This document shows positions 53,616-63,639 of a stretch of 64,000 nt of DNA, in pieces. The notes beneath the pieces are model-generated. The model was not told the origin of the DNA. It was given only the letters and a program-made list of their open reading frames with translations, and ran no database searches. The stretch lies in the NCBI GenBank assembly GCA_944390285.1, contig CALXPN010000001.1, positions 210,413 through 274,412 of the forward strand, written 5' to 3'. Source of the stretch: an uncultured Clostridia bacterium (GTDB lineage: Bacteria > Bacillota > Clostridia > TANB77 > CAG-508). Each line of letters begins with the position of its first letter. Within the stretch, counting starts at the first letter, position 1. Position numbers and translations under genes: made by a program.

Positions 53616-54479
53616 TTACTTCAATATTTCTTTAATAATTCCATTTTTTATATCATTTATGTTGTATATATCTTCCATTGTATCAAAAGTTTCTTTTAAA
53701 TTATTTTTTGCCGAATACCAACCATAGCCATCAGTAAACCAAACAAACTTAAATCCATATACATTTTTAGATTCTTCAGCTAACATTTTATAGCTTCTAG
53801 CCGTTTCATTTAATTTAGAACCACTTGAAGCATAAAAATTAGTTTCAATTCCGTAAATACAATTATCTGTCTTTACAACAAAATCAAATCTTTTAGTTGT
53901 TTGATTTTGATTACTTATAAAAGACATATCTAATTTCCATTTTTCTTCAATTTTTTGTAAATACATTTCTTTAAAATATGTTTCATCTTTCTTAAAACCA
54001 GACTTAATTAAAAAATTTTCAATTAAATCTTCCATTAAATGTCCACCACGATTTTTTCTTGCATTTGAATTTAAACCAGATTCAACGCCTAAAACATAAT
54101 CATATAAATTATTTACTAAATGATTTTGGATTAAATCAAATAACCCTGTTTCTCTCATAAATGTTTTATATTGTTCTAATGTATAATTCATCTTTTTAAA
54201 ATCATATATAAAGTTATTTCCATCTTTATCAAGTACAAGTATTTCACTTTGTCTAACTGCTAAAAGAATTGGAATACATTTTAGTACTTCTGGATATTTA
54301 GCAATTATATTTTCAAAATCACTTTCAATATTTTTACTTCCAATTAAAGAATTTAATATATTTAATTCTACTTTTAATTTTTCAGCATTTTTATATACAG
54401 TTTCAAAATCTATGTAATATTTATAATTTGCAATACTATCTGTAAATGTTAATAGCCATTCGGAAAAATTTCTTGTCAT
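53616..54479 (-). CDS. dpnB: type II restriction endonuclease, DpnII/MboI family (GATC)
   Basis: Collinear similarity, from memory, to S. pneumoniae DpnII: TRNF.EWL, LNI.NSLIGSKNIE, NRGG, KRFDFV, NFY.SGSKLNETARSYK, WFTDG.GW, LKETFD, YNINDI. Confidence 0.85.
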   Translation of the reverse strand: MTRNFSEWLLTFTDSIANYKYYIDFETVYKNAEKLKVELNILNSLIGSKNIESDFENIIAKYPEVLKCIPILLAVRQSEILVLDKDGNNFIYDFKKMNYTLEQYKTFMRETGLFDLIQNHLVNNLYDYVLGVESGLNSNARKNRGGHLMEDLIENFLIKSGFKKDETYFKEMYLQKIEEKWKLDMSFISNQNQTTKRFDFVVKTDNCIYGIETNFYASSGSKLNETARSYKMLAEESKNVYGFKFVWFTDGYGWYSAKNNLKETFDTMEDIYNINDIKNGIIKEILK

Positions 54480-54489
54480 TTTCTACCTC

Positions 54490-55380
54490 CTATATATTTT
54501 CGAAAAAGTCTAAATCTAATTTTTTTATTTTATATTCTGTTTCTGTATAGCATCCAACATTATATTTAATCATTAGTTTTACTAATTTTTCTCCATCTAT
54601 TAAAATAATATTTTGATTTTCGGCATATTGAATCGCTGGTTTTCCAAAATAACTTGTTGTAATAAATACTCCTTTTTTTATATTTTTACCAGCCATTGCT
54701 CCCACGAATCTTTGAAGTTCAGGTCTAGAAATTCCACTATCTTTATCAAATCTTTTTGTTTGAATATATATCGTATTTATTCCTAACTCATCTTCTAATA
54801 CAATTCCATCAATTCCTTCATCATTAGTCTTAGGAGTTACAGTAGCATTTTCTATTTTTCCATATCCCATTGCTGTTATTAATTTTACTGCCAAATTTTC
54901 CAAAAAGTCAGATGTTTGATTCAATATTTCTTGTAGCAATTCACTTTCTAATTCAGAATTTAGCTTCGTAATAGCATTATCGATTTCTTCTTGAGGTGTA
55001 TATTTATCATCTTCATTATCTATGTTTTCTTTTTTATTATGTATTTCTCCTTTAAATTTTAAAAAAGACTCAAATTTTGATAATTCATTATTATCTATTT
55101 TTATATTTTTTTTTAATAATTCAAGTCCATCTTTTGTAATAGAAAATATTCCTCTTTTAGAACTAGATATAACTCCAGCTTTTTTCAAATAAGTAGCTGT
55201 CCAACCTACTCTATTAGTAAATAAATTTCTTCCACTGTTCAATGTTTCTTTTTGCTCTAATTCACTAATATTGTATACTTTTATAATATAGTTTCTTATT
55301 TCTTGAATTGTATGTTCTTTCTTGTCTTTCAAAACATTTAACATATCATTATACATTTCATCATATTTAGGTATTGGCAT
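54490..55380 (-). CDS. mrr: Mrr-like restriction endonuclease (Mrr_N wHTH plus Mrr catalytic domain)
   Basis: N-terminal LFTNRVGWTATYLKKAGVISS wHTH. C-terminal IDGIV...IYIQTKRF, a PD-(D/E)xK variant (D...QxK) as in Mrr. Confidence 0.75.
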   Translation of the reverse strand: MPIPKYDEMYNDMLNVLKDKKEHTIQEIRNYIIKVYNISELEQKETLNSGRNLFTNRVGWTATYLKKAGVISSSKRGIFSITKDGLELLKKNIKIDNNELSKFESFLKFKGEIHNKKENIDNEDDKYTPQEEIDNAITKLNSELESELLQEILNQTSDFLENLAVKLITAMGYGKIENATVTPKTNDEGIDGIVLEDELGINTIYIQTKRFDKDSGISRPELQRFVGAMAGKNIKKGVFITTSYFGKPAIQYAENQNIILIDGEKLVKLMIKYNVGCYTETEYKIKKLDLDFFENI

Positions 55381-56155
55381 TTTCTTTCTCCTTTATTTCT
55401 TTATATCTTTTTATAGATAAATCTAAATATTCTTTTTCATTGTCTATTCCTATGTATTTTCTATTTAATTTATTAGCCACAATTCCTGTGGTACTGCTAC
55501 CACAAAACGGATCTAATATTAAATTATTTTCATGTGTTGAAGCTAAAATTATTTTTTCAAGTATTTCTAGTGGTTTTTGCGTTGGATGTTTTCCTTGTTT
55601 CTTTTCAGATGGTTTTGTAAGACTAGTTGTCCAAACATCTTTCATTTGTTTATTATCATTTAATTTTTTCATCAAATCGTAGTTAAATGTATATTTTACT
55701 TTTGGTAAATTTTTCTTTGCCCAAAGTATAGTTTCTGTTGAGTGTGTAAAAGTTTTACAAGCCAAATTTGGAGGTGGATTAGTTTTTTGCCAAGTTATAT
55801 TATTTATAATTTTAAATCCATTTTCTTCAAGTGCCATACCTATTGAGTAAATATTATGCAAAGTACCACTAATCCATATTGTTCCATTATCTTTTAAAAC
55901 TCTATGGCATTCTTTAATCCATTTTTTATTGAAATCGTGTTTATCTTTTAAAGAATCACATTTATCCCAATTTCCTTTATTAACACTAACCATTTTTCCA
56001 GACTTACAAGTAATTCCATTATTAGAAAGAAAATATGGTGGGTCTGCAAAAATTACATCTATACTTTTTTCTTCGAATTTTTTTAGTATTTTTAGAGAAT
56101 CTCCATTTATTAAATTAAAATCATTTTCTTGAAAGTAAAACTTCCCTTTATACAT
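55367..56155 (-). CDS. dpnA: N6-adenine DNA methyltransferase, DpnA-like (beta class)
   Basis: IFADPPYFLSNNG catalytic motif followed by C-terminal AdoMet motif ILDPFCGSSTTG. Position after dam, as in the DpnII cassette. Confidence 0.85.
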   Translation of the reverse strand: MYKGKFYFQENDFNLINGDSLKILKKFEEKSIDVIFADPPYFLSNNGITCKSGKMVSVNKGNWDKCDSLKDKHDFNKKWIKECHRVLKDNGTIWISGTLHNIYSIGMALEENGFKIINNITWQKTNPPPNLACKTFTHSTETILWAKKNLPKVKYTFNYDLMKKLNDNKQMKDVWTTSLTKPSEKKQGKHPTQKPLEILEKIILASTHENNLILDPFCGSSTTGIVANKLNRKYIGIDNEKEYLDLSIKRYKEIKEKENANT

Positions 56156-56167
56156 TTATTTCTCCAA

Positions 56168-57061
56168 TTAATAATTTGTTATTAGTAATTCTGAAATGGC
56201 TTTTCTTCCATTTCCTTTTGAATTAATATTTCTATTTGCTAATACTTCATTCAACTTAAATCCATCATATAGATCTACAAAAAAGTTATCATCTTTATTT
56301 GTGTTTTTAGGATTTGAATTACTTAACATTAACTTTGCTCCTTTTAAAGATAGTTCTTTATAAAATTTTCCTAATTTTCTTTGATCATCATCATTAAATT
56401 CTTCTTTAGTATATGAAGTAAATCCAGAAGTTGTATTTAAAGGTCTATATGGTGGATCAAAATAGATAAATGTATCTTTATTTGTATATTTTTCTGATTT
56501 TTTATAATCTCCACAATAAAAATCAACATCTTGAATAAGTTTTGACAAGTTTCTCAAATTCGTAGAATCACAAATTGTTGGATTTTTTGCATTATTAAAA
56601 GGAACATTAAATTTATTATTACTATTTACTCTATATAAACCATTAAAACAAGTTTTATTTAAAAATATAAATTCTGATGCTCTTTTAACATTAATTATTT
56701 TATCTTGTAACTCATAAGAATTATATTCAGTTCTTATTTCATAAAAATATTCTTTTCTTTTAGCATTTTCTAGACTTTTATATTTCTTTTCTTTTTCATC
56801 TAATTTAGTAATAAGTTCTTCAACATTATTTTTAGCAACTAAATAACAATTAATCAAATCAGCATTAATATCAAAAGCAATAGCATTTTCGATATTGTAC
56901 TTTTGAAGCACTTCTATTAGCATAGCACCACCACCAACAAATGGTTCTATATATGTTTTTATTTTTCCATCTGTTAATTCTGTTGGTAAATATTTATTTA
57001 TTTGTCCTATAAGTTGAGATTTTCCCCCAGCCCATTTTACAAAAGGTCTTATTTTCTCCAC
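56168..57061 (-). CDS. dpnM: Dam-family N6-adenine methyltransferase (GATC), DpnM-like
   Basis: VKWAGGKS, EPFVGGGA, FDPPY. GTG start 6 nt after GGAGG. Confidence 0.9.
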   Translation of the reverse strand: MEKIRPFVKWAGGKSQLIGQINKYLPTELTDGKIKTYIEPFVGGGAMLIEVLQKYNIENAIAFDINADLINCYLVAKNNVEELITKLDEKEKKYKSLENAKRKEYFYEIRTEYNSYELQDKIINVKRASEFIFLNKTCFNGLYRVNSNNKFNVPFNNAKNPTICDSTNLRNLSKLIQDVDFYCGDYKKSEKYTNKDTFIYFDPPYRPLNTTSGFTSYTKEEFNDDDQRKLGKFYKELSLKGAKLMLSNSNPKNTNKDDNFFVDLYDGFKLNEVLANRNINSKGNGRKAISELLITNY

Positions 57062-57205
57062 TTTCTTCCTCCATTAATACTAATTGAATAATTTATTTAT
57101 AGCATATTTATATCATACTTTTGTTTATATTTAAATACTATATATAAATAATTCTGACAATTTAAAATATTATTACAATTGATATAAGGTAAAAAGAAAC
57201 TCGTA

Positions 57206-57724
57206 CTAAAAAATTTGATCTTCTTTATTTTCTACTTTTTTTCCATCTACATATTTTACAATTTTAACTTCTTCTCTCTCTTTTCCTATTATTATGTGTA
57301 AACCCAATTTATATTTAAAATTAGCATTTGGATCTGTTAGTTTTTTCAATTTAATTATATCTCTTTTCAATTCTCTTGTGTTTATATTGTCATACATTTT
57401 AAATTCTATTACTAAAATATTCTTATTACTATCTTTTCCTCTTTTATGTAAAATAAAATCAGGATAAATATTTTTTTCATTTTCACTATCGTCTAAGATA
57501 TTTTTCTTATCAAAACCATCTCTATCATATTCACAATCAATGCACAAATCATCATATGTTTTAGAATATTTTTTATCAAAAAAAATATAAAAATATTTTG
57601 AAAAATGAAAAACTATATTTCTTTCTGTAGAATTATTTTGTATCAAATATTTATCTTTTTCGTACAATTTGTTCAACGACATATCAACTAATTCTAATAC
57701 TTCTTTAATTATTTTTTCTTTCAA
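57206..57724 (-). CDS. hypothetical protein with PD-(D/E)xK nuclease-like motif
   Basis: ERNIV..., IYPDFILH and ILVIEFK spaced as in E...PD...(D/E)xK restriction-endonuclease-fold proteins; 172 aa. Confidence 0.4.
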   Translation of the reverse strand: MKEKIIKEVLELVDMSLNKLYEKDKYLIQNNSTERNIVFHFSKYFYIFFDKKYSKTYDDLCIDCEYDRDGFDKKNILDDSENEKNIYPDFILHKRGKDSNKNILVIEFKMYDNINTRELKRDIIKLKKLTDPNANFKYKLGLHIIIGKEREEVKIVKYVDGKKVENKEDQIF

Positions 57725-57791
57725 TTTAATTTCTCCTATTTTTTATTTAATATATTGTTAAGATACATATGCTGATAATATTAAATAAATT

Positions 57792-58736
57792 TTATAAACT
57801 ACTTTTATTATTTATAATCTCAACAATTTTTTGTCCATGAATCTTTATTTTAATATCTGATAGAATTTTTAAATTCTTAAGTTCTGTAATATTTTTAGGT
57901 CTATATTTTACTAATTTTTCTAATTCATCATTATTAAAAATATAATATGCTGGTATATTCTTTTCTTTTGAAGTTTCTCTTCTAAAATCTTTTAACTCTT
58001 TTTTTAATATTTCTTCTCTATTTTCTTTACAGCTATCAGCAATTTTATTTAATGAATTTTCTAATGATATACTATTTTGTAACCATTTTCTTAATTCTTG
58101 TTCATAATCTCTATCTATAATCTCATTGTAATTATTCATAATTCCAAATGCATTTTCTTTCATTTCCTTTGCTGTATATCTCATATCTTTATCTGTATTA
58201 TTTACATCATTTTGTAAATATTTTACTAAATTATCTGAACGAACTATTTTATTTTTAATTTCTTTAGGTGCAGATTTTATATCTAATATACTTTTTGGAT
58301 TAGTCATTACAACTATGTATTTACACCATTTATCAAAATTTCTCATTTGTAACTTATTAATTAGTTTTGTATTTTTACTATTCCAAATTTTCTTGAATAT
58401 TTCTATATGTCTTTCAACTTGTCTTATTGGAGAATAAATTCCCTCTCTTACTTTTTTTCTATTATATGTATATTCTCTAATAAATTCGCCTCTACTATTA
58501 ACACTTATATTTCCTACCAGATTTTTACATTCTATAAAATACATACTTGCTGGGGTAATAACTATATAGTCTATTTGTGCCGTTAAATCTTCATATTTCA
58601 TATTAATATCATGTAATACATACATTCCAATATTTGCATTTTTCAATTCAAATTCAATTTCTTTTTCACCTTTTAATCCTAATTCACATAATTTCAACTT
58701 TTGTCCGAATTTTATCATTACTTGGAAATTCAGCAT
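57792..58736 (-). CDS. NERD-domain protein with HRDC-like C-terminus (5' end apparently frameshifted)
   Basis: GEKEIEFELKN...LTAQIDYIVITP...FIECKN NERD core. C-terminal IPAYYIFNNDELEKLVKYRPKNITELKNLK is HRDC/HhH-like. Confidence 0.7.
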   Translation of the reverse strand: MLNFQVMIKFGQKLKLCELGLKGEKEIEFELKNANIGMYVLHDINMKYEDLTAQIDYIVITPASMYFIECKNLVGNISVNSRGEFIREYTYNRKKVREGIYSPIRQVERHIEIFKKIWNSKNTKLINKLQMRNFDKWCKYIVVMTNPKSILDIKSAPKEIKNKIVRSDNLVKYLQNDVNNTDKDMRYTAKEMKENAFGIMNNYNEIIDRDYEQELRKWLQNSISLENSLNKIADSCKENREEILKKELKDFRRETSKEKNIPAYYIFNNDELEKLVKYRPKNITELKNLKILSDIKIKIHGQKIVEIINNKSSL

Positions 58737-58824
58737 TTATTTTCTTTAAGGCTTTAATTTGATATTCTAATTCACTATCTTGCTTATAAAAAATTGTTTT
58801 ATCGAATTTTTTAAATAATTCCAT
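58684..58824 (-). pseudogene. detached N-terminal reading frame of the NERD gene
   Basis: ATG 58824 lies 8 nt after GGGAG. The 46 codons (MELFKKFDKTIFYKQDSELEYQIKALKKINAEF...) end at TGA 58684-58686. They overlap the NERD ORF in a frame offset by one nucleotide. Confidence 0.5.
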
Positions 58825-58891
58825 AAAGTTTTCTCCCATTATTTAATACATAATTTATATCATAAAATTTTTAAAGTCTCAATAAGTATAA

Positions 58892-58919
58892 CAAAAGACA
58901 CTTTAAAAAGTGTCTTTGT
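58892..58919 (-). terminator. hairpin with U-tract on the minus strand (possible end of an RT read-through transcript)
   Basis: AAAGACAC/GTGTCTTT stem (58894-58901 / 58910-58917). On the minus strand it is followed by TTTTGTTATACTT. Confidence 0.45.
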
Positions 58920-58923
58920 GGAA

Positions 58924-59282
58924 GCGGGTATTCATTGTTTTTGGCTTTGTAGCCGTATTTTGAGCATTTTTTGTTTCCCAATACGTTGACCAATTGAAAT
59001 AATAACAAATAATTTTGAATAATGTTATATAGCTTTATTCGGAATTTCCGAATTTTCCTTTCCTAAAAATTGTGCATTTGCACGTTTTTTAGGAATATCA
59101 AAAAACTTTTGTCGGTTTTTCCGGTAAAAGTTTTCGAGCTGTCGCAAAATTTGCGACAGTTAATTTTCAAATTTTCTTGTGTAATTCTTGTGTAGTTCAT
59201 TTTAAATTTTTGTAAATTTATGCATTTTTTTAATAAATTATAAAATCCATTTTAAATTTTTGGGGGTACCCGCATTTTTTTT
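58924..59282 (+). ncRNA. candidate structured ncRNA: inverted-repeat-bounded multi-hairpin element downstream of and antisense to the RT
   Basis: Closing helix GCGGGTATTC (58924-58933) / GGGTACCCGC (59264-59273), then A+T8. Hairpins at 58943-58954, 58954-58985, 59037-59053, 59060-59095, 59102-59134 and 59137-59161. All wobble pairs are G-U on the plus strand. No ORF. Confidence 0.45.
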
Positions 59283-59317
59283 AAATGGATTTACATTTTT
59301 ATTTTCTGTTAAATTTG

Positions 59318-60280
59318 CTATTTCTGTAAATTAACACTATTTTTTAATTGTTTCTTTAACCCTTGATAAGCATTTTTTACAGACAATTCCGAAAAATTAG
59401 CTAAACCTACTAGAGAATTTTTCAAAGAATTATCTATTTCTTTAATGTTTTTTACTTGAGCTAACTTTCTTTTTATTTTTAATCTTGTTTTATTTCCAAC
59501 AACTAATTGGTGCTCTGGTGAAATTACAAATCCAGTTATCTTCTTATAATCACTAGTGCTATATCTTATAGTTTTATTTTTGCTTATTTTTTGACCATAT
59601 TTTTTTACAATACCTTTTAGTTGTTTTTCTTCTTCAAAACTTATTTTTCTATTCGTAGACAAAGTTATATCATCTACATATATAGAACAAATTAACCCAT
59701 GGCATTTACAATAACCATAAACTTCATCAAACATATCTAAATTAGCTAAATATGATAGTATTTGACTTGTTGGTGTTCCTGATGGTAAATGATTTCTAAT
59801 TTTTATATGTTTTAATTTCATGTACTCAAATACATCATCATCAATATTTACATTATCAGAATCATAATTAATTGTTGTAATATCTGTACATAACTTTGCT
59901 ACATCAGCAGACATTTTTAATTTTCTATAAAAAAAATTATATACTTTATCTCTATGCGTATTCGGAAAAAACTTACTCATATCTAACTTTAACATACATT
60001 CAGAATTTATATGTGTTAAAGCATTATCATAAGCTGACCTTCCTTTTATTCCTGAAAAAACATATTCTGGAAATTGTATCTGATAAAGCTTATTTAAAAT
60101 TCTTTTTTGTAGTAGTTTTAATTTAAAATTAGGTTTTTCTAATAATCTTTTTTCTTCACTTATACAAACTTTGTATTTATTTAAAATAAGACCTACTTCC
60201 TCTGGAGTAGAGCTTATTAAATGATATAAATCTCTTTTTCTTTTTAAATTATATAACTGACAATTTTCAAAATTTATCAT
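59318..60280 (-). CDS. retron-type reverse transcriptase
   Basis: RT motifs KRLLEKPNFKLKLLQKRI (1), SGIKGRSAYDNALTH (2), LKLDMSKFFPN (3/A), LPSGTPTSQILS (4/B), IYVDDITLS (5/C), KKITGFVIS (retron VTG-like box). 320 aa with no extra domain. ATG 60280 follows AAGGAG. Confidence 0.8.
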   Translation of the reverse strand: MINFENCQLYNLKRKRDLYHLISSTPEEVGLILNKYKVCISEEKRLLEKPNFKLKLLQKRILNKLYQIQFPEYVFSGIKGRSAYDNALTHINSECMLKLDMSKFFPNTHRDKVYNFFYRKLKMSADVAKLCTDITTINYDSDNVNIDDDVFEYMKLKHIKIRNHLPSGTPTSQILSYLANLDMFDEVYGYCKCHGLICSIYVDDITLSTNRKISFEEEKQLKGIVKKYGQKISKNKTIRYSTSDYKKITGFVISPEHQLVVGNKTRLKIKRKLAQVKNIKEIDNSLKNSLVGLANFSELSVKNAYQGLKKQLKNSVNLQK

Positions 60281-60344
60281 AAATTCTCCTTTTCCTTTTA
60301 TAAGCAAATTAAAATTTAATTTACTTATAAAAAGAAAAGGTTAA

Positions 60345-60548
60345 TTAGTTTTTAGTGAAAAATTCAACAGCAATTTCAATTACTATCTTTGCTGTTTTGA
60401 TAACAAACTTAGTACTTATCAAAATCTCAAAACCGATAAGCGTTTTTACTAATTTCATTATCTTTTCTTCACTATAACCACAAGCTTTCCCCACTATCAT
60501 TATGCCAAATATCAAATAAACTATTGTGTTTGAGATTTCCATAATCAT
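60345..60548 (-). CDS. 67-aa membrane peptide upstream of the RT
   Basis: Strong RBS AGGAGGTG 5 nt before the ATG. One clear TM helix (TIVYLIFGIMIVGKACG) plus an amphipathic C-terminal half. 64 nt upstream of the RT gene on the same strand. Confidence 0.6.
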   Translation of the reverse strand: MIMEISNTIVYLIFGIMIVGKACGYSEEKIMKLVKTLIGFEILISTKFVIKTAKIVIEIAVEFFTKN

Positions 60549-60582
60549 TTACACCTCCTTTTTTTAGATTAGACTTATCAAA

Positions 60583-60960
60583 TTACATTAGTGCACTTAA
60601 TGTAATAAGTAAGGCCCCTTCAATTCTAATCTTAGAAAGTGTACAGCTTGCGAGTGGTTCCTAATTAACTTTACCTCAGAAGTCCCTTCAAGAAATAAGA
60701 TAACAGTTCTACAAGAACCATTAAGATTATTTCTAAAGCCATGGCCAACTTTACAAAAAGAATTTTGAAAGTCAAACATTATCTACACCTAATTTAGTTA
60801 GTGTTTTTAGTTGATGTAGGCCATGCTGTTAAGAACTTCTATATATGTATATAGTACTTTATTAAATAAATTTTCTACATACAAAATATGCAGGATATAT
60901 AAATATCCTTCGCTATTTCTAGCCAAACAAGGGGACTTATAATCGAGCCTCGTGAGGAGT
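60583..60960 (-). ncRNA. candidate retron msr-msd-like ncRNA upstream of the membrane-peptide/RT genes
   Basis: Promoter-proximal inverted repeat TAAGTCCCCTT (60939-60929) / AAGGGGCCTTA (60620-60610), 10 of 11 complementary, with a G immediately 3' of the left arm. Internal stems at 60892-60909, 60748-60772 and 60691-60734. Terminal hairpin at 60583-60605. Confidence 0.4.
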
Positions 60961-60966
60961 GCTTTT

Positions 60967-60995
60967 ATTATATGACCATACCAAAGAAAAATCAA
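60967..60995 (-). promoter_or_regulatory. sigma-A promoter driving the candidate ncRNA / RT operon
   Basis: On the minus strand: TTGATT (60995-60990), 17-nt spacer, TATAAT (60972-60967). Confidence 0.5.
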
Positions 60996-61102
60996 GAACA
61001 TTTTTTTATTTCTTATAAAACTTCATGTACATTTCATAAATCTATAGCAATTTTTGTCTAAATATAGTATAATTAGCACATAAAAATTATATGGAGGCTA
61101 AA

Positions 61103-61843
61103 ATGAATAAATTAGAAAAATTTGTACAAGAAGCAAAAGAATTTTCACAAAAAGACATAACTTCTCGAGACCCAGCATTTATTGCTTGGAATAATTCTTT
61201 AATTAGATTTTTAGAAAAAAAATATGGAACTAACTCTTCGACAACAAAAAATTTTAAAAAAAGAACTTATTCTTTAGGAGCATACGCTCTTGGAACACCT
61301 GAAAGTAGTTTTATAAAAGTTTATAAAAGAGATATGCAAGTAACGTTACGTGAGTTAGAAATACTATTAGAAGAAGAATTAACAACTGAGGAAATTGAAA
61401 AACAACCTACATCTAATGAAAAAATAACTACCAAAAAAGTATTTATCGTTCATGGACGTGATGATAGTAAAAAATATGAACTTTCAGGATTTTTATATGA
61501 ACAAGGTTTAACTCCTATAATTTTGCATGAACAAGTAAATAATGGTCAAACAATCATTGAAAAAATTGAAAATAATAGTGATGTAGCCTGTGCTATTATT
61601 CTATTAACACCAGACGACGAAGGTAGATTAAAATCATCAACTAATGAATTAAAAACTAGAGCTCGCCAGAATGTAATTTTTGAAGCAGGATATTTTATGG
61701 GTAAATTAGGTAGAAACAGAACAATATTATTAAGCGGAGTAGAAGAAAAAATGTCAGATATCGATGGCATTGTATACCTTGATATCAATAATTATAAATC
61801 ATCTTTATTACAAGAACTAAAATCTTTAAATCTAATAAATTAA
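61103..61843 (+). CDS. TIR-like (COG4271/CAP12-type) nucleotide-binding domain protein with unknown N-terminal domain
   Basis: C-terminal KKVFIVHGRDDS...PIILHEQ...GQTIIEKIE...ACAIILLTPDD...ARQNVIFEAGYFMGKLGR matches the bacterial TIR-like/SLOG-type pattern. ATG 61103 follows GGAGG. Confidence 0.65.
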   Translation: MNKLEKFVQEAKEFSQKDITSRDPAFIAWNNSLIRFLEKKYGTNSSTTKNFKKRTYSLGAYALGTPESSFIKVYKRDMQVTLRELEILLEEELTTEEIEKQPTSNEKITTKKVFIVHGRDDSKKYELSGFLYEQGLTPIILHEQVNNGQTIIEKIENNSDVACAIILLTPDDEGRLKSSTNELKTRARQNVIFEAGYFMGKLGRNRTILLSGVEEKMSDIDGIVYLDINNYKSSLLQELKSLNLIN

Positions 61844-61858
61844 AAAAGGGGATAAAAT

Positions 61859-62155
61859 ATGGATAACAATATAAAAATAATGTCTATACAAGAAGATATG
61901 AAAGAAATTGAAGCAGTATTAAATAATAATATCACTGATATCGATATCCAAATCTTAAAAAAATTGCACAGAAAAATAGATAGTAAATACCAAGCTTGCA
62001 TAAAAGACTGGAGCAAAAGCTTATATTGTTGGATACCAGATTTTGGATTTAGTTACGATCTTTTAGACACAACTTCTTTAATTGAAAATTTAGAATCTAT
62101 GTTATGTAAACTTTCTTCGTATTCTATGGGATTTAATGATATTAAAAACAAATAA
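61859..62155 (+). CDS. hypothetical 98-aa protein co-transcribed with the TIR-like gene
   Basis: Starts 16 nt after the TIR-like stop and is preceded by AAGGGGA. No motif recognised. Confidence 0.5.
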   Translation: MDNNIKIMSIQEDMKEIEAVLNNNITDIDIQILKKLHRKIDSKYQACIKDWSKSLYCWIPDFGFSYDLLDTTSLIENLESMLCKLSSYSMGFNDIKNK

Positions 62156-62188
62156 ACGGGAGGTTTTTATCCCGTTTATTTGTTTTTT
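62150..62188. terminator. bidirectional terminator shared by the TIR-like operon and the Fic gene
   Basis: 12-bp stem AAATAAACGGGA/TCCCGTTTATTT covering both stop codons; T6 follows on the plus strand. Confidence 0.8.
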
Positions 62189-63150
62189 AAAATTTTCCAA
62201 GTTCCTGTTTTAGGAGAACCTATTCTTTTAATAATTTTCTTATCTTTTAAATTTTTTATATTATAAGAAATTCCATCTCTAGTTAAACCTAATTTTTCAG
62301 CCATTTCATTTTGTGTAATATTAGGATTCATCTTTATTAAATTTATAATTTTTTCTTCTGTAGTTTCTTTTGTTGAATTCTGCTCTATAATTATTTTATC
62401 TATTGTTTCATAAATCATTTTCAACATAAATTCTATAAACTCAGTTGATTCACCAATTTTATTACAATTATCTATAATTTTATAATACTCTTCTTGATAT
62501 TGTTTTATTAAACTTTCAATAGGTACATATTCGAAAATCTCTTTCCATTTAGAAAGTAAAGCTGATTGCCAAAGTCTAGCCATCCTACCATTACCATCTC
62601 CAAAAGGATGTATAAAAACAAATTCATAATGAAATACAGAAGAAAGTATTAAAGGATGAACTATATCCTTAGATTCTTTCATCCAAGAAAATAAATTTTC
62701 CATTAATTCTGGAACTAATTTTTCTGATGGTGCAACAAATATACATTTATCTCCATCATAAACACCTTCACCATGACTTCTAAATCTTCCGCTCTCTTCT
62801 TCTACTAAAAATGTCATTATTCCATGAACTAATTTTAAATCTTCTATAGAATATGGATTTATTTGAGAAATTTTATTGTATGCTTCATATGCATTTTTTA
62901 CTTCTTGAATATCCTTTTTATCTCCAATTACCATTCGACCATTTATTACATCTTCAACTTGAAATAAAGACAATTGATTATTTTCAATAGCTAGAGAAGA
63001 ATGTATAGAATTAATTCTATTTTGTTTTCTTAATTCTGGCTTTTTATTTAAATTTATATAACTATTTATTTCTCCAACTTTTTCCATTATTTTTGAAACA
63101 TAGTCTAACATCTTATCAGTTATTTTATATGGTGGTATATATTTATCCAT
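62176..63150 (-). CDS. Fic-family protein with C-terminal wHTH
   Basis: Fic motif HPFGDGNGRMARL. C-terminal ITQNEMAEKLGLTRDGISYNIKNLKDKKIIKR is a wHTH. Confidence 0.85.
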   Translation of the reverse strand: MDKYIPPYKITDKMLDYVSKIMEKVGEINSYINLNKKPELRKQNRINSIHSSLAIENNQLSLFQVEDVINGRMVIGDKKDIQEVKNAYEAYNKISQINPYSIEDLKLVHGIMTFLVEEESGRFRSHGEGVYDGDKCIFVAPSEKLVPELMENLFSWMKESKDIVHPLILSSVFHYEFVFIHPFGDGNGRMARLWQSALLSKWKEIFEYVPIESLIKQYQEEYYKIIDNCNKIGESTEFIEFMLKMIYETIDKIIIEQNSTKETTEEKIINLIKMNPNITQNEMAEKLGLTRDGISYNIKNLKDKKIIKRIGSPKTGTWKILKNK

Positions 63151-63220
63151 TTTTCCTCCTTCAGTAGTTTTATCTACACCTTTATTATACTACATTTAAC
63201 AGATTATATCAATATTTATT

Positions 63221-63256
63221 GTGTAGTTTATTATGTAGTTTATTGTGTAGTATTTA
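63221..63256. repeat. three tandem 12-nt repeats upstream of the Fic gene
   Basis: GTGTAGTTTATT / ATGTAGTTTATT / GTGTAGTATTTA. The last unit forms an 8-bp hairpin with TACTACAC (63257-63264). A further inverted copy TACTACA lies at 63188-63194. Confidence 0.7.
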
Positions 63257-63258
63257 TA

Positions 63259-63639
63259 CTACACTTTTATTCTCTCAACTATAAACAAATCTGCAGGTGC
63301 AAATTGAAAGTTATCTAATTCGTTTTTAGAAACCCACTTATAATCTTCATGTTCTAATAATCTAATTTCTCCATTTATCTTTTTACATTCTAAAGCAATT
63401 AAATTAATATTTTTTTCTGGATAATTAAATACTTTTTCTGACAAATAAGATTTTACTTCTATATCAATATCTAATTCTTCTTTTATTTCTCTTACAATTG
63501 CATTCTCACGTGTTTCATTAGGTTCTATTTTTCCTCCTGGAAATTCCCATAAACCACCTTGAGCTTTCTTTAAATTTCTTTGAGTTATTAATATTTTTCC
63601 ATTTTCATCTTTTATTACTGCAGCTACTACATTAATCAT
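63259..63639 (-). CDS. mutT: NUDIX hydrolase, MutT-like (8-oxo-dGTP diphosphatase family)
   Basis: Nudix box GGKIEPNETRENAIVREIKEELDI; 126 aa. Confidence 0.8.
   Translation of the reverse strand: MINVVAAVIKDENGKILITQRNLKKAQGGLWEFPGGKIEPNETRENAIVREIKEELDIDIEVKSYLSEKVFNYPEKNINLIALECKKINGEIRLLEHEDYKWVSKNELDNFQFAPADLFIVERIKV

What the first reader, a model, noticed from the sequence alone, without database searches (positions are those of the whole stretch)
58890..59300. 350-nt inverted-repeat-bounded element with four tandem near-perfect hairpins, downstream of and apparently antisense to the reverse transcriptase
Between the RT stop (59318) and the NERD gene lie about 480 nt without an ORF, visibly richer in G+C than ordinary intergenic DNA here. 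A 10-bp helix joins GCGGGTATTC (58924-58933) to GGGTACCCGC (59264-59273). It encloses four consecutive, sequence-unrelated hairpins separated by only 2-6 nt. These are 59037-59053 (7 bp), 59060-59095 (15 bp with one mismatch), 59102-59134 (14 bp) and 59137-59161 (11 bp). Smaller stems lie at 58943-58954 (GGCT/AGCC) and 58954-58985 (CGTATT/AATACG). There is also a tandem TTCTTGTGTA x2 (59174-59194) and an exact 15-nt direct repeat CATTTTAAATTTTTG (59198-59212 and 59248-59262). All six non-Watson-Crick pairs I found are G-U when read on the plus strand: two in the closing helix, one in the second hairpin, two in the third and one in the fourth. They would be A-C mismatches on the minus strand. 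The right arm is followed by A plus T8 (59274-59282), which is terminator-like on the plus strand. This points to a plus-strand RNA convergent with the RT gene. In conflict with that, hairpin 58894-58917 has its U-tract on the minus strand, so an RT read-through transcript would also cover the element in antisense. Retron msr-msd RNAs are bounded by a1/a2 inverted repeats, but they normally sit upstream of the RT on the same strand and are shorter. This could therefore be a non-canonical RT template or partner RNA, an antisense regulator, or an independent ncRNA class.
Basis: partly seen in the sequence, partly recalled or inferred. Interest (0 to 1): 0.85.

Follow-up and report, generated by a model that had tools for sequence, protein, structure and literature searches.

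The report
Retron-independent hairpin-rich non-coding island cassette
The hairpin-dense stretch behind the reverse transcriptase is real, but it is a separate non-coding cassette that also occurs without any reverse transcriptase, while the retron keeps its own template RNA upstream, so it is probably an ordinary small-RNA or terminator module.

Summary
Hairpins, repeats, inverted repeat and T-run sit at the stated coordinates and exceed chance: plus-strand fold z = -6.9, and GCGGGTAY occurs twice in 64 kb against 0.07 expected.

The retron reading does not hold.
- The RT is a type VI retron RT (PADLOC RT_VI, 4e-64).
- Its promoter, structured RNA and small-protein gene lie upstream (60345-60995, minus strand). 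They are conserved down to RTs of 57% identity, with compensatory pairs and a sequestered ribosome-binding site.
- The downstream element follows only RTs of at least 90% identity. It is absent from about 80 other RT loci.
- It occurs with the same ends and no RT nearby in 9 contigs (L091, L093-L100), between unrelated defence genes.
- The closing helix is lost in two variants.
- Covariation over six variants is not significant.
- Substitutions accumulate about as fast as at RT third codon positions, with many indels.

Best reading (confidence 0.4): a self-contained cassette of a defence island (window about 58918-59293). It is most likely a plus-strand small transcription unit: a conserved sigma-70-like promoter, two to four stable hairpins, 1-4 copies of an 11-nt repeat, and one or two canonical intrinsic terminators. 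It may also insulate the convergent retron operon. Transcription, strand and function remain inferred.

The parts
58894..58917 (-). Intrinsic terminator on the RT strand, lying just outside the cassette's left boundary. It is flank sequence. Four different contexts each carry a different hairpin plus U-run at this position.
   Evidence: 10 pairs, tail TGTTATACTT. One search finds a different terminator at the same place in L091 (3419-3401). Searches give the L001 and L098 versions.
58918..58933 (+). Left boundary of the cassette (TGGAAGCGGGTATTC), including the left arm GCGGGTATTC (58924-58933) of the long-range inverted repeat.
   Evidence: Homology with L001, L002, L090, L091 and L098 starts here. 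GCGGGTAY occurs twice in the window against 0.07 expected. The arm is absent in L088.
58943..58985 (+). Two small stems: GGCT/AGCC (58943-58954) and CGTATT/AATACG (58955-58985). They are weakly conserved and partly broken in L088, L090 and L091.
   Evidence: Per-pair counts: helix 2 is 87.5% paired, helix 3 is 97.9%, and neither has a change on both sides.
58986..59023 (+). Conserved sigma-70-like promoter candidates pointing towards the hairpins: TTGACC-16-AATAAT (58986-59013) and TTGAAA-18-AATAAT (58994-59023). An extended -10 candidate on the other strand (TGTTATTAT, 59007-58999) overlaps them.
   Evidence: It is the only promoter-like site in 700 nt of L001. Alignment A6 columns 155-195 are among the best conserved. 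These are consensus matches only.
59002..59028 (+). Hairpin H0 (ATAACA / TGTTAT with a 15-nt loop). One pair changes on both sides between variants: U-A, C-G, with U-G in L091.
   Evidence: helix 4, pair 173/197: CG 3, UA 2, UG 1.
59037..59095 (+). Hairpins H1 (59037-59053) and H2 (59060-59095). They are present only in this window and in its duplicate L092. They are probably a diverged tandem duplicate of H3-H4.
   Evidence: They are absent from L001, L002, L088, L090 and L091. Paralogy score.
59102..59161 (+). Hairpins H3 (59102-59134) and H4 (59137-59161). This is the conserved core, present in every copy of the cassette.
   Evidence: helices 5 and 7 are 96-99% paired. The H4-H3 pattern retrieved the RT-less locus L091.
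59174..59198 (+). Tandem 11-nt repeat TTCTTGTGTAA, 2.3 copies here. Copy number is 1 in L088, 2 in L002, 3 in L091 and 4 in L001.
   Evidence: A related 12-nt tandem motif lies upstream of the fic gene.
59198..59233 (+). First 50-nt terminator unit. It is degenerate here (TGTAAATTTATGCA + T7) but canonical in L001 and L088 (GTGCAGATTTCTGCAC + T6-7).
   Evidence: duplication of the unit.
59243..59293 (+). Second terminator unit and right boundary. The right arm GGGGGTACCCGC (59262-73) is followed by A + T8. It is enclosed by the long AU hairpin AAATCCATTTTAAA / TTTAAATGGATTT. That hairpin is the only candidate stop for the convergent RT operon (an inference; see the report).
   Evidence: L091: TGCGGGTACCCGCA + CTTTTTT; L001: TGCGGGTATCCGCA + T7. 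Homology to L091 ends at ...AAATGGATTTA.
59318..60280 (-). Type VI retron reverse transcriptase (320 aa from the ATG at 60280). Given as context; not part of the cassette.
   Evidence: PADLOC RT_VI 4.2e-64. Pfam RVT_1. YVDD, NALTH and ITG motifs in the translation. Homologues are 316-320 aa.
60345..60995 (-). The retron's own promoter (60995-60967), structured non-coding RNA (about 60550-60965) and small hydrophobic protein gene (60345-60548). Given as context; not part of the cassette.
   Evidence: One search shows 8 pairs with compensatory changes and the AGGAGGUG ribosome-binding site paired to a conserved CACUUUCU.

Best explanation
Window 58918-59293 is a self-contained non-coding cassette of a defence island. 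It is not a component of the retron beside it.

The retron is a type VI system. Its own promoter, structured template RNA and small toxin-like gene lie upstream of the RT.

The cassette is most likely a small transcription unit read on the plus strand.
- A conserved sigma-70-like promoter (58986-59023) fires towards the RT gene.
- The RNA would be about 260 nt here and about 150 nt in the RT-less form.
- It consists of two to four very stable hairpins, 1-4 copies of a U/G-rich 11-nt repeat that would stay single-stranded, and one or two canonical intrinsic terminators.
- Those terminators, and the long AU hairpin around the last one, would keep this transcription out of the RT gene and stop the convergent RT operon.
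- I take the repeat tract to be the interaction surface of a trans-acting RNA, for base-pairing or protein binding. The hairpins would mainly confer stability.

Shown: the anatomy, the independence from the RT, the modular ends, and the presence and orientation of terminator and promoter motifs.

Inferred: that the cassette is transcribed, from which strand, and any function beyond termination.
For: Independence from the RT:
- The cassette is present only behind RTs of at least 90% identity (L001-L003, L088, L090).
- It is absent behind RTs of 82%, 73% and 57-59% identity, where other genes start 11-90 nt after the stop or unrelated DNA follows.
- A profile search of 100 loci (664 kb) plus the window finds no further copy.
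- An H4-H3 pattern scan found L091. The NUDIX-anchored look-up then found L093-L100. All carry the cassette with the same ends and no RT in up to 20 kb. It sits there between a ToxN-like gene and a small-peptide gene in the same NUDIX-flanked island.

The retron is complete without it.

Plus-strand unit:
- Canonical plus-oriented terminators are present: L091 TGCGGGTACCCGCA + T6, and L001 TGCAGATTTCTGCA + T7 and TGCGGGTATCCGCA + T7. On the other strand these hairpins sit between A-runs.
- A conserved plus-oriented promoter-like motif is the only such site in L001.
- The plus strand folds better in 4 of 5 variants.
- Most wobble pairs are G-U on the plus strand.
- No conserved small ORF was seen on either strand, by my own reading of frames across variants (sequences; ORF list).
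Against: - No transcript data exist. Promoter-like sites are as frequent as in shuffles in this AT-rich DNA (18 found, 18.0 expected).
- Covariation over six variants is not significant. Between 135 and 139 of 500 shuffles reach the observed values for percentage paired, pairs changed on both sides and covariation score (22 of 500 for cells changed on both sides).
- Several substitutions give G-U on the minus strand instead: the H4 outer pair, H4 in L090, and H3 in L088.
- Substitution identity in the cassette (89-90%) is about that of RT third codon positions (88%) and lower than that of the upstream retron RNA (92-96%). About a quarter of the columns are indels.
- The 100 nt upstream of the proposed promoter are as conserved as the proposed RNA itself, which the model does not explain.
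- H0 would straddle the proposed start site.
Confidence: 0.4

Rival explanations
1. Terminator and hairpin pile-up at a recombination-prone junction of a defence island. The hairpins would be intrinsic terminators and their tandem duplicates. They persist by descent and act at most as a transcriptional insulator between neighbouring cassettes. No dedicated RNA product is implied.
For: - The substitution rate is near-synonymous and indels are frequent.
- There is no significant covariation.
- The element grows and shrinks by whole units: H1-H2 only here, 1-4 repeat copies, 1-2 terminator units, and ends truncated in L088 and L090.
- Terminator-like sites are strongly enriched: 4 against 0.6 expected in the window, 7 against 0.3 in L001, and 5 against 0.4 in L091.
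- Neighbours differ on both sides. Junctions cluster at the two ends.
Against: - The same roughly 260-nt core, with the same two ends, is kept in at least four different neighbourhoods. Junk would not obviously behave this way.
- H0 and H3 each show one both-sided change, and H4's outer pair shows a two-step C-G, U-G, U-A change on the RT strand.
- H1 is still a perfect palindrome despite diverging from H3.
- A promoter-like motif is conserved inside the element.
Confidence: 0.3
2. A DNA-level element rather than an RNA. The 11-12-nt direct repeats and the palindromes would be protein-binding sites (operator array, iteron-like or recombination/transfer site). The ends would be preferred recombination points that let island cargo be exchanged.
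For: - The repeat period is 11 nt. The core (A/T)(C/T)TACACAAGAA resembles three tandem ACTACA(C/T)AATAA units just upstream of the fic-wHTH promoter at 63216-63251. The shared pattern has 7 hits against 1.1 expected, 5 of them in these two clusters.
- H1 and H4 are near-perfect palindromes of operator type.
- Wobble positions favour neither strand consistently.
- An integrase plus Mob_Pre element abuts the left boundary in L098. Four different flanks join within about 30 nt of that boundary.
Against: - No recombinase, Rep or relaxase gene travels with the cassette.
- L091-type islands carry the repeats but have no fic gene between NUDIX and the cassette.
- There is no similarity to plasmid or phage DNA beyond one weak 67-nt hit.
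- No target-site duplication is seen at the ends.
- Four different palindromes would need four different binding proteins.
Confidence: 0.15
3. A structured 3' untranslated region of the RT operon, read on the minus strand. The hairpins would protect the retron mRNA from 3' exonucleases. Transcription would end at 58917-58894.
For: - In every context, a canonical terminator oriented with the RT follows the cassette: the window, L001, L091 and L098 each have a different stem plus a U-run.
- The minus strand also folds well (z -5.4).
- Some substitutions are G-U only on this strand.
Against: - In L091-L100 no RT or other co-oriented gene lies upstream of the cassette to be stabilised.
- RTs of 57-82% identity do without it.
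- On this strand the two GC hairpins at the RT-proximal end lie between A-runs, whereas on the plus strand they are canonical terminators.
Confidence: 0.1
4. One reading: a non-canonical retron RNA bounded by a1/a2-like repeats. It would be a second template or partner for the type VI RT, encoded downstream and convergent.
For: - The 7-10-bp closing helix is present in the window, L001, L002 and L091, and its sequence is otherwise absent from the window.
- A multi-hairpin body lies between the arms.
- In five contigs the cassette travels with the retron, including into a different genomic neighbourhood in L001/L002.
Against: - The retron's own ncRNA is upstream and covaries.
- The element is absent from all RT loci below 90% identity.
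- It occurs without an RT in nine contigs.
- One arm is missing in L088 and the other in L090.
- The right arm is itself the palindromic stem of a terminator, so complementarity to a copy of its own half is expected.
- No Rfam retron or other family matches.
Confidence: 0.05

Closest known systems
Retron msr-msd RNA, specifically the type VI 'hybrid RNA' (Retron-Vpa2, Retron-Sen3)
   Same: A several-hundred-nucleotide multi-hairpin non-coding stretch next to a retron RT, with a long-range inverted repeat that could close the structure.
   Different: - Type VI RNAs lie upstream of the RT on the same strand, contain the small-protein gene and sequester its ribosome-binding site (bioRxiv 10.1101/2025.10.22.683967; 10.64898/2026.04.27.721009).
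- That RNA exists in this window at 60345-60965.
- The element under study is downstream and probably on the opposite strand. It is not co-inherited with the RT and is found without one.
Bacterial trans-encoded small RNA genes (own promoter, stable hairpins, single-stranded seed region, rho-independent terminator)
   Same: Compact size, a promoter-like motif, stable stem-loops, a U-rich single-stranded repeat tract, canonical terminator(s), no ORF, and location in a horizontally exchanged island.
   Different: There is no transcript evidence, no identified target and no Rfam family. The sequence evolves almost neutrally. The region upstream of the putative promoter is equally conserved.
Clusters of intrinsic terminators and repetitive extragenic palindromes (REP/BIME-type intergenic hairpin arrays)
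   Same: Several adjacent GC-cored hairpins followed by T-runs between convergent or tandem operons. The number of units varies between strains and they duplicate in tandem.
   Different: REP elements are one sequence family scattered in many copies per genome. Here the hairpins differ from one another, and no other copy is found in 64 kb or in 664 kb of related loci.
Miniature inverted-repeat transposable elements (MITEs)
   Same: A 260-375-bp non-coding unit with short inverted repeats near its ends, found in different neighbourhoods.
   Different: The inverted repeat is only 7-10 bp and not terminal. No target-site duplication is seen. There is a single copy per locus, and one or the other arm is missing in two variants.

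Membership tests
Retron msr-msd / type VI hybrid RNA (for the element 58918-59293) | Encoded next to the RT on the same strand, upstream of it (in type VI together with the small-protein gene). | tested here: not met
   The element lies downstream of the RT stop. Its terminators and most wobble pairs favour the opposite strand. The upstream position is occupied by another conserved RNA.
Retron msr-msd / type VI hybrid RNA (for the element 58918-59293) | Co-inherited with the RT across homologous retrons. | tested here: not met
   It is present only with RTs of at least 90% identity. It is absent in about 80 other RT loci. It is present without an RT in L091 and L093-L100.
Retron msr-msd / type VI hybrid RNA (for the element 58918-59293) | Terminal a1/a2 inverted repeats that close the RNA and position the priming guanosine. 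| tested here: inconclusive
   A 7-10-bp helix is present in the window, L001, L002 and L091. The left arm is missing in L088 and the right arm in L090. No pair changes on both sides. No G directly follows the arm on either strand.
Retron msr-msd / type VI hybrid RNA (for the element 58918-59293) | RT-dependent synthesis of single-stranded DNA from the msd part. | not testable with these tools
   This needs msDNA gels or cDNA sequencing with wild-type and YVDD-mutant RT.
Type VI retron (for the neighbouring locus 59318-60995) | RT belongs to the type VI clade. | tested here: met
   PADLOC RT_VI 4.2e-64. The next best profile is RT_III-A at 9.6e-33.
Type VI retron (for the neighbouring locus 59318-60995) | Small accessory protein gene upstream of the RT, inside a structured RNA that occludes its ribosome-binding site. 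| tested here: met
   A 65-67-aa hydrophobic ORF lies at 60345-60548 with an AGGAGGTG site. A 64-65-aa gene sits in the same place in homologues. The site pairs with a conserved CACUUUCU, and 8 pairs carry compensatory changes.
Type VI retron (for the neighbouring locus 59318-60995) | Cro/C1-type HTH protein between the small protein and the RT (present in about 78% of type VI entries according to 10.64898/2026.04.27.721009). | tested here: not met
   Only 64 nt separate the small-protein stop (60345) from the RT start (60280). No HTH hit appears in Pfam, PADLOC or NCBIfam for the small ORFs.
Intrinsic (rho-independent) terminators | GC-containing stem-loop followed directly by a U-run on the transcribed strand. 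| tested here: met
   Plus strand: 59262-59282 here, and canonical versions in L091 and L001. Minus strand: 58917-58894.
Trans-encoded small RNA gene | A discrete transcript with its own start site and 3' end. | not testable with these tools
   Only consensus motifs are available. No expression data could be reached.
Any curated RNA family (Rfam 15) | Match to a covariance model at or near the gathering score. | tested here: not met
   There is no hit inside the element at E <= 10 in the window, and no meaningful hit at E <= 1 in L091.
MITE / IS-derived element | Terminal inverted repeats, target-site duplication, multiple dispersed copies. | tested here: not met
   The inverted repeat is short and sub-terminal. 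No duplication is seen at the junctions. There is no second copy in the window or in 100 loci.

The most novel reading that the evidence does not exclude
The cassette may be a new class of portable, protein-free RNA module of defence islands. On this reading it is a stable plus-strand RNA of about 150-260 nt. Its repeat tract would regulate or sense neighbouring immune systems: the convergent type VI retron here, and a type I toxin-antitoxin-like pair in the RT-less islands. It would be exchanged between island slots as a unit.
Probability: 0.1. Interest if true: 0.6.

Novelty: new member of a known kind. Interest (0 to 1): 0.3.

Why it matters
The finding was attractive because type VI retrons were long thought to lack a recognisable template RNA. 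A downstream antisense RNA would have been a new retron architecture. The evidence removes that possibility for this locus. The retron is a standard type VI system without the HTH gene, from a gut Clostridia lineage, and its RNA sits where recent work places it.

What remains is an uncharacterised non-coding cassette that moves between slots of a defence island. If it proves to be a functional RNA, it would be a small addition to the list of island-borne regulators. If it does not, it illustrates how terminator hairpins accumulate and duplicate at cargo junctions and can mimic a structured RNA.

Tried and rejected
- Rfam at permissive thresholds on the window and on L091: nothing relevant.
- BLAST of the element against phage and plasmid collections: nothing except one weak 67-nt Alistipes hit.
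- First metagenome and viral pattern scans, using the promoter-region motif: no hit. The second pattern found nothing in viral contigs.
- Complementarity between the element and the retron's upstream RNA or RT gene: only AT-rich 8-10-mers at chance level. An RNAduplex shuffle test timed out.
- Small conserved ORFs on either strand: frames are not conserved between variants and no ribosome-binding site is present. This rests on reading the sequences.
- A strand call from G-U asymmetry: rejected as decisive. Relatives show wobbles on both strands, and the plus strand is T-rich here.
- The closing helix as a defining feature: rejected. It is lost in L088 and L090, and its right arm is a palindromic terminator stem.
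- Similarity to the oriT or att regions of the integrase/Mob_Pre element next to the cassette in L098: nothing evident.
- Literature search for retrons with an ncRNA downstream of the RT: none found for type VI.
Full report
**Observation**

The region between the RT stop (59318) and the NERD-HRDC gene (start 58839) is 478 nt without a credible ORF.
- Hairpins lie at 59037-59053, 59060-59095, 59102-59134 and 59137-59161.
- The 11-nt tandem repeat spans 59174-59198.
- The exact 15-nt direct repeat is present.
- The right arm is followed by A + T8.
- A minus-strand terminator lies at 58917-58894.
- The stretch folds far better than shuffles on both strands: plus -109.4 kcal/mol, z -6.9; minus -90.7, z -5.4.
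- The arm sequence GCGGGTAY occurs only twice in 64 kb, both here and inverted (expected 0.07).
- G+C is only slightly raised.
- No Rfam family matches.

**What the RT is, and where its RNA lies**

The RT matches the PADLOC type VI retron profile at 4e-64. It carries YVDD, NALTH and ITG motifs.

Two recent preprints place the type VI template RNA upstream of the RT. There it forms one transcript with a small toxic protein gene whose ribosome-binding site is buried in structure (10.1101/2025.10.22.683967; 10.64898/2026.04.27.721009).

This window has exactly that arrangement.
- A 10-of-12 promoter lies at 60995-60967.
- About 400 nt of non-coding sequence follow.
- Then comes a 65-67-aa hydrophobic ORF with an AGGAGGTG site, directly before the RT.
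- This upstream block is conserved at the DNA level down to RTs of 57% identity.
- Its consensus fold has closing helices and a ribosome-binding-site-sequestering helix, with 8 pairs changed on both sides.

The retron is therefore complete without the downstream element. It lacks the HTH gene that most type VI systems have.

**Distribution of the downstream element**

I collected 307 RT homologues, 80 genome loci and contigs for the closest proteins.
- The element follows only RTs of at least 90% identity: L001-L003, L088 and L090.
- Behind RTs of 82% and 73% identity another gene starts 11-90 nt after the stop. Behind RTs of 57-72% identity the intergenic DNA is unrelated.
- The last few RT codons change together with the downstream DNA, so the junction lies at the very end of the gene.
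- A profile of the core, searched with nhmmer over 100 loci (664 kb) plus the window, finds no other copy.

A pattern taken from the H4-H3 core then retrieved a JGI contig, L091, with the element but no RT.
- L091 shares the flanking NUDIX gene at 96% identity with the window, so it is the same island in a close relative with different cargo.
- The look-up anchored on that NUDIX protein returned eight more contigs, L093-L100. They carry the identical or 97%-identical element. It sits between a ToxN-like gene and a small-peptide gene, or, in L098, next to an integrase plus Mob_Pre element.
- The two ends of the homologous segment are the same in all contexts...TGGAGCGGGTATTC on the left and ...AAATGGATTTA on the right.
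- The element is thus a discrete cassette, about 375 nt here and about 262 nt in L091, and independent of the RT.
- Caveat: only up to 20 kb around each RT-less copy was seen. A retron elsewhere in those genomes cannot be excluded.

**Anatomy and variation**

The common core has these parts.
- The left arm.
- Two weak stems.
- A well-conserved segment with promoter-like hexamers, inside which a 6-7-bp hairpin (H0) forms.
- H3 and H4.
- The 11-nt repeat, in 1-4 copies.
- One or two 50-nt units, each a GC hairpin followed by T6-8.

H1 and H2 exist only in this window. They look like a diverged tandem copy of H3-H4. The two terminator units are also duplicates. L088 lacks the left arm. L090 lacks the whole RT-proximal third, including the right arm. 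The closing helix is therefore not a conserved requirement. Its right arm is itself the palindromic stem of a terminator, which by itself explains complementarity to a copy of its own half.

**Is the structure selected, and on which strand?**

RNAalifold recovers H0, H3, H4 and the small stems on both strands.
- H0 and H3 each have one both-sided change on the plus-strand fold. H4's outer pair goes C-G, U-G, U-A on the RT strand.
- On six variants none of the measures exceeds the shuffle control: 135-139 of 500 shuffles reach the observed values for three measures and 22 of 500 for cells changed on both sides.
- The plus strand folds better in four of five variants, and most wobbles are G-U on the plus strand. 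However, H4 in L001, L090 and L091, and H3 in L088, wobble on the minus strand.
- The plus strand is T-rich here, so a mutational bias could mimic the asymmetry.
- Aligned positions are 89-90% identical between the window and L001 or L088. That compares with 88% at RT third codon positions and 92-96% in the upstream retron RNA. About a quarter of the columns are indels.

The sequence is therefore under weak constraint at best.

**Transcription signals**

- On the plus strand the hairpins at the RT-proximal end are canonical intrinsic terminators. On the RT strand they lie between A-runs.
- No standard RT-strand terminator lies between the RT stop and the left boundary. My reading, not a scan result, is that the long AU hairpin AAATCCATTTTAAA/TTTAAATGGATTT, which is followed by a U-rich tract on the RT strand, is the only candidate stop there.
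- A plus-oriented TTGACC-16-AATAAT motif, or the overlapping TTGAAA-18-AATAAT, is kept in all variants. It is the only promoter-like site in 700 nt of L001.
- Just outside the left boundary, every context supplies a different terminator oriented with the RT. So leftward transcription is also stopped there.
- I found no conserved ORF on either strand.

**Conclusion**

The best-supported reading is a retron-independent, self-contained non-coding cassette. Most likely it is a plus-strand small transcription unit that also stops convergent transcription (confidence 0.4).

The rivals are:
- a functionless or merely insulating pile of duplicated terminators (0.3);
- a DNA-level protein-binding or recombination element (0.15), hinted at by the related tandem motif upstream of fic and by junction clustering;
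- a minus-strand 3' UTR (0.1);
- the retron-partner RNA (0.05).

Strand-specific transcript mapping would decide among the first four. RT-dependent cDNA mapping would settle the last.

Noticed in passing
window 63216-63251 (minus strand), upstream of the fic-wHTH gene 62176-63150: Three tandem 12-nt units ACTACA(C/T)AATAA lie directly upstream of a TTGATA...TATAAT promoter, with inverted GTGTAGT/ACTACAC copies nearby. The core resembles the cassette's 11-nt repeat. The shared pattern WYTACAYAAKAA has 7 hits in 64 kb against 1.1 expected, 5 of them in these two clusters. This may be an operator array for the wHTH domain.
   Followed up: partly
L091 3774-4096: A type I toxin-antitoxin-like pair lies beside the RT-less copy of the cassette. 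One side has a promoter, a GGAGGTG site, a hydrophobic peptide of about 29 aa (LSSYELIWRLIVLLLLSNNNQEDSQNSQD) and a terminator on one strand. The other side has a perfect convergent promoter (TTGACA-17-TATAAT with TG) plus a terminator, giving an RNA of about 65 nt.
   Followed up: partly
L091 2613-3265: A weak ToxN-family hit (E 7e-4, below the Pfam cut-off) is preceded by two 32-nt direct repeats AAATATGTGTCGCTCTTGGGTGGTGCGACTAA. This is the layout of a type III toxin-antitoxin system.
   Followed up: no
L098 9650-12470: An integrase plus Mob_Pre relaxase element abuts the cassette's left boundary (junction right after ...GCTCCAATA) and replaces the ToxN-like neighbour. The left end of the cassette may be an integration hot spot.
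   Followed up: partly
window 60345-60995 (minus strand) and homologous loci: This is a type VI retron without the usual HTH gene. The small hydrophobic protein gene sits directly before the RT. The upstream RNA has conserved 5' and 3' modules around a variable centre, and it sequesters the ribosome-binding site.
   Followed up: yes
L008 about 2300-2400: A tRNA 3' end (GGTTCGAGTCCC...CACCA) replaces the 5' half of the retron's upstream RNA in this 73%-identity relative, suggesting a truncated retron or one inserted at a tRNA gene.
   Followed up: no
window 57792-58839 (minus strand): The NERD-HRDC gene is split. A 51-aa ORF (58684-58839) overlaps the 314-aa ORF (57792-58736). The same split is called in the independent contig L092, so it is not a local sequencing error.
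   Followed up: no
window 53616-63639: This is a dense defence island. It holds a DpnII endonuclease, Mrr, two DNA methyltransferases, a PD-Lambda-3_A-like protein, NERD-HRDC, the retron, a PDC-S35 TIR protein and Fic-wHTH, ending at a NUDIX gene that anchors the island in relatives.
   Followed up: partly
L004 and L008-L009, downstream of the RT: In the 73%-identity RT clade, a Bro-N domain gene starts 86-87 nt after the RT stop and is followed by a 374-aa gene. They may be accessory genes of that retron lineage.
   Followed up: no
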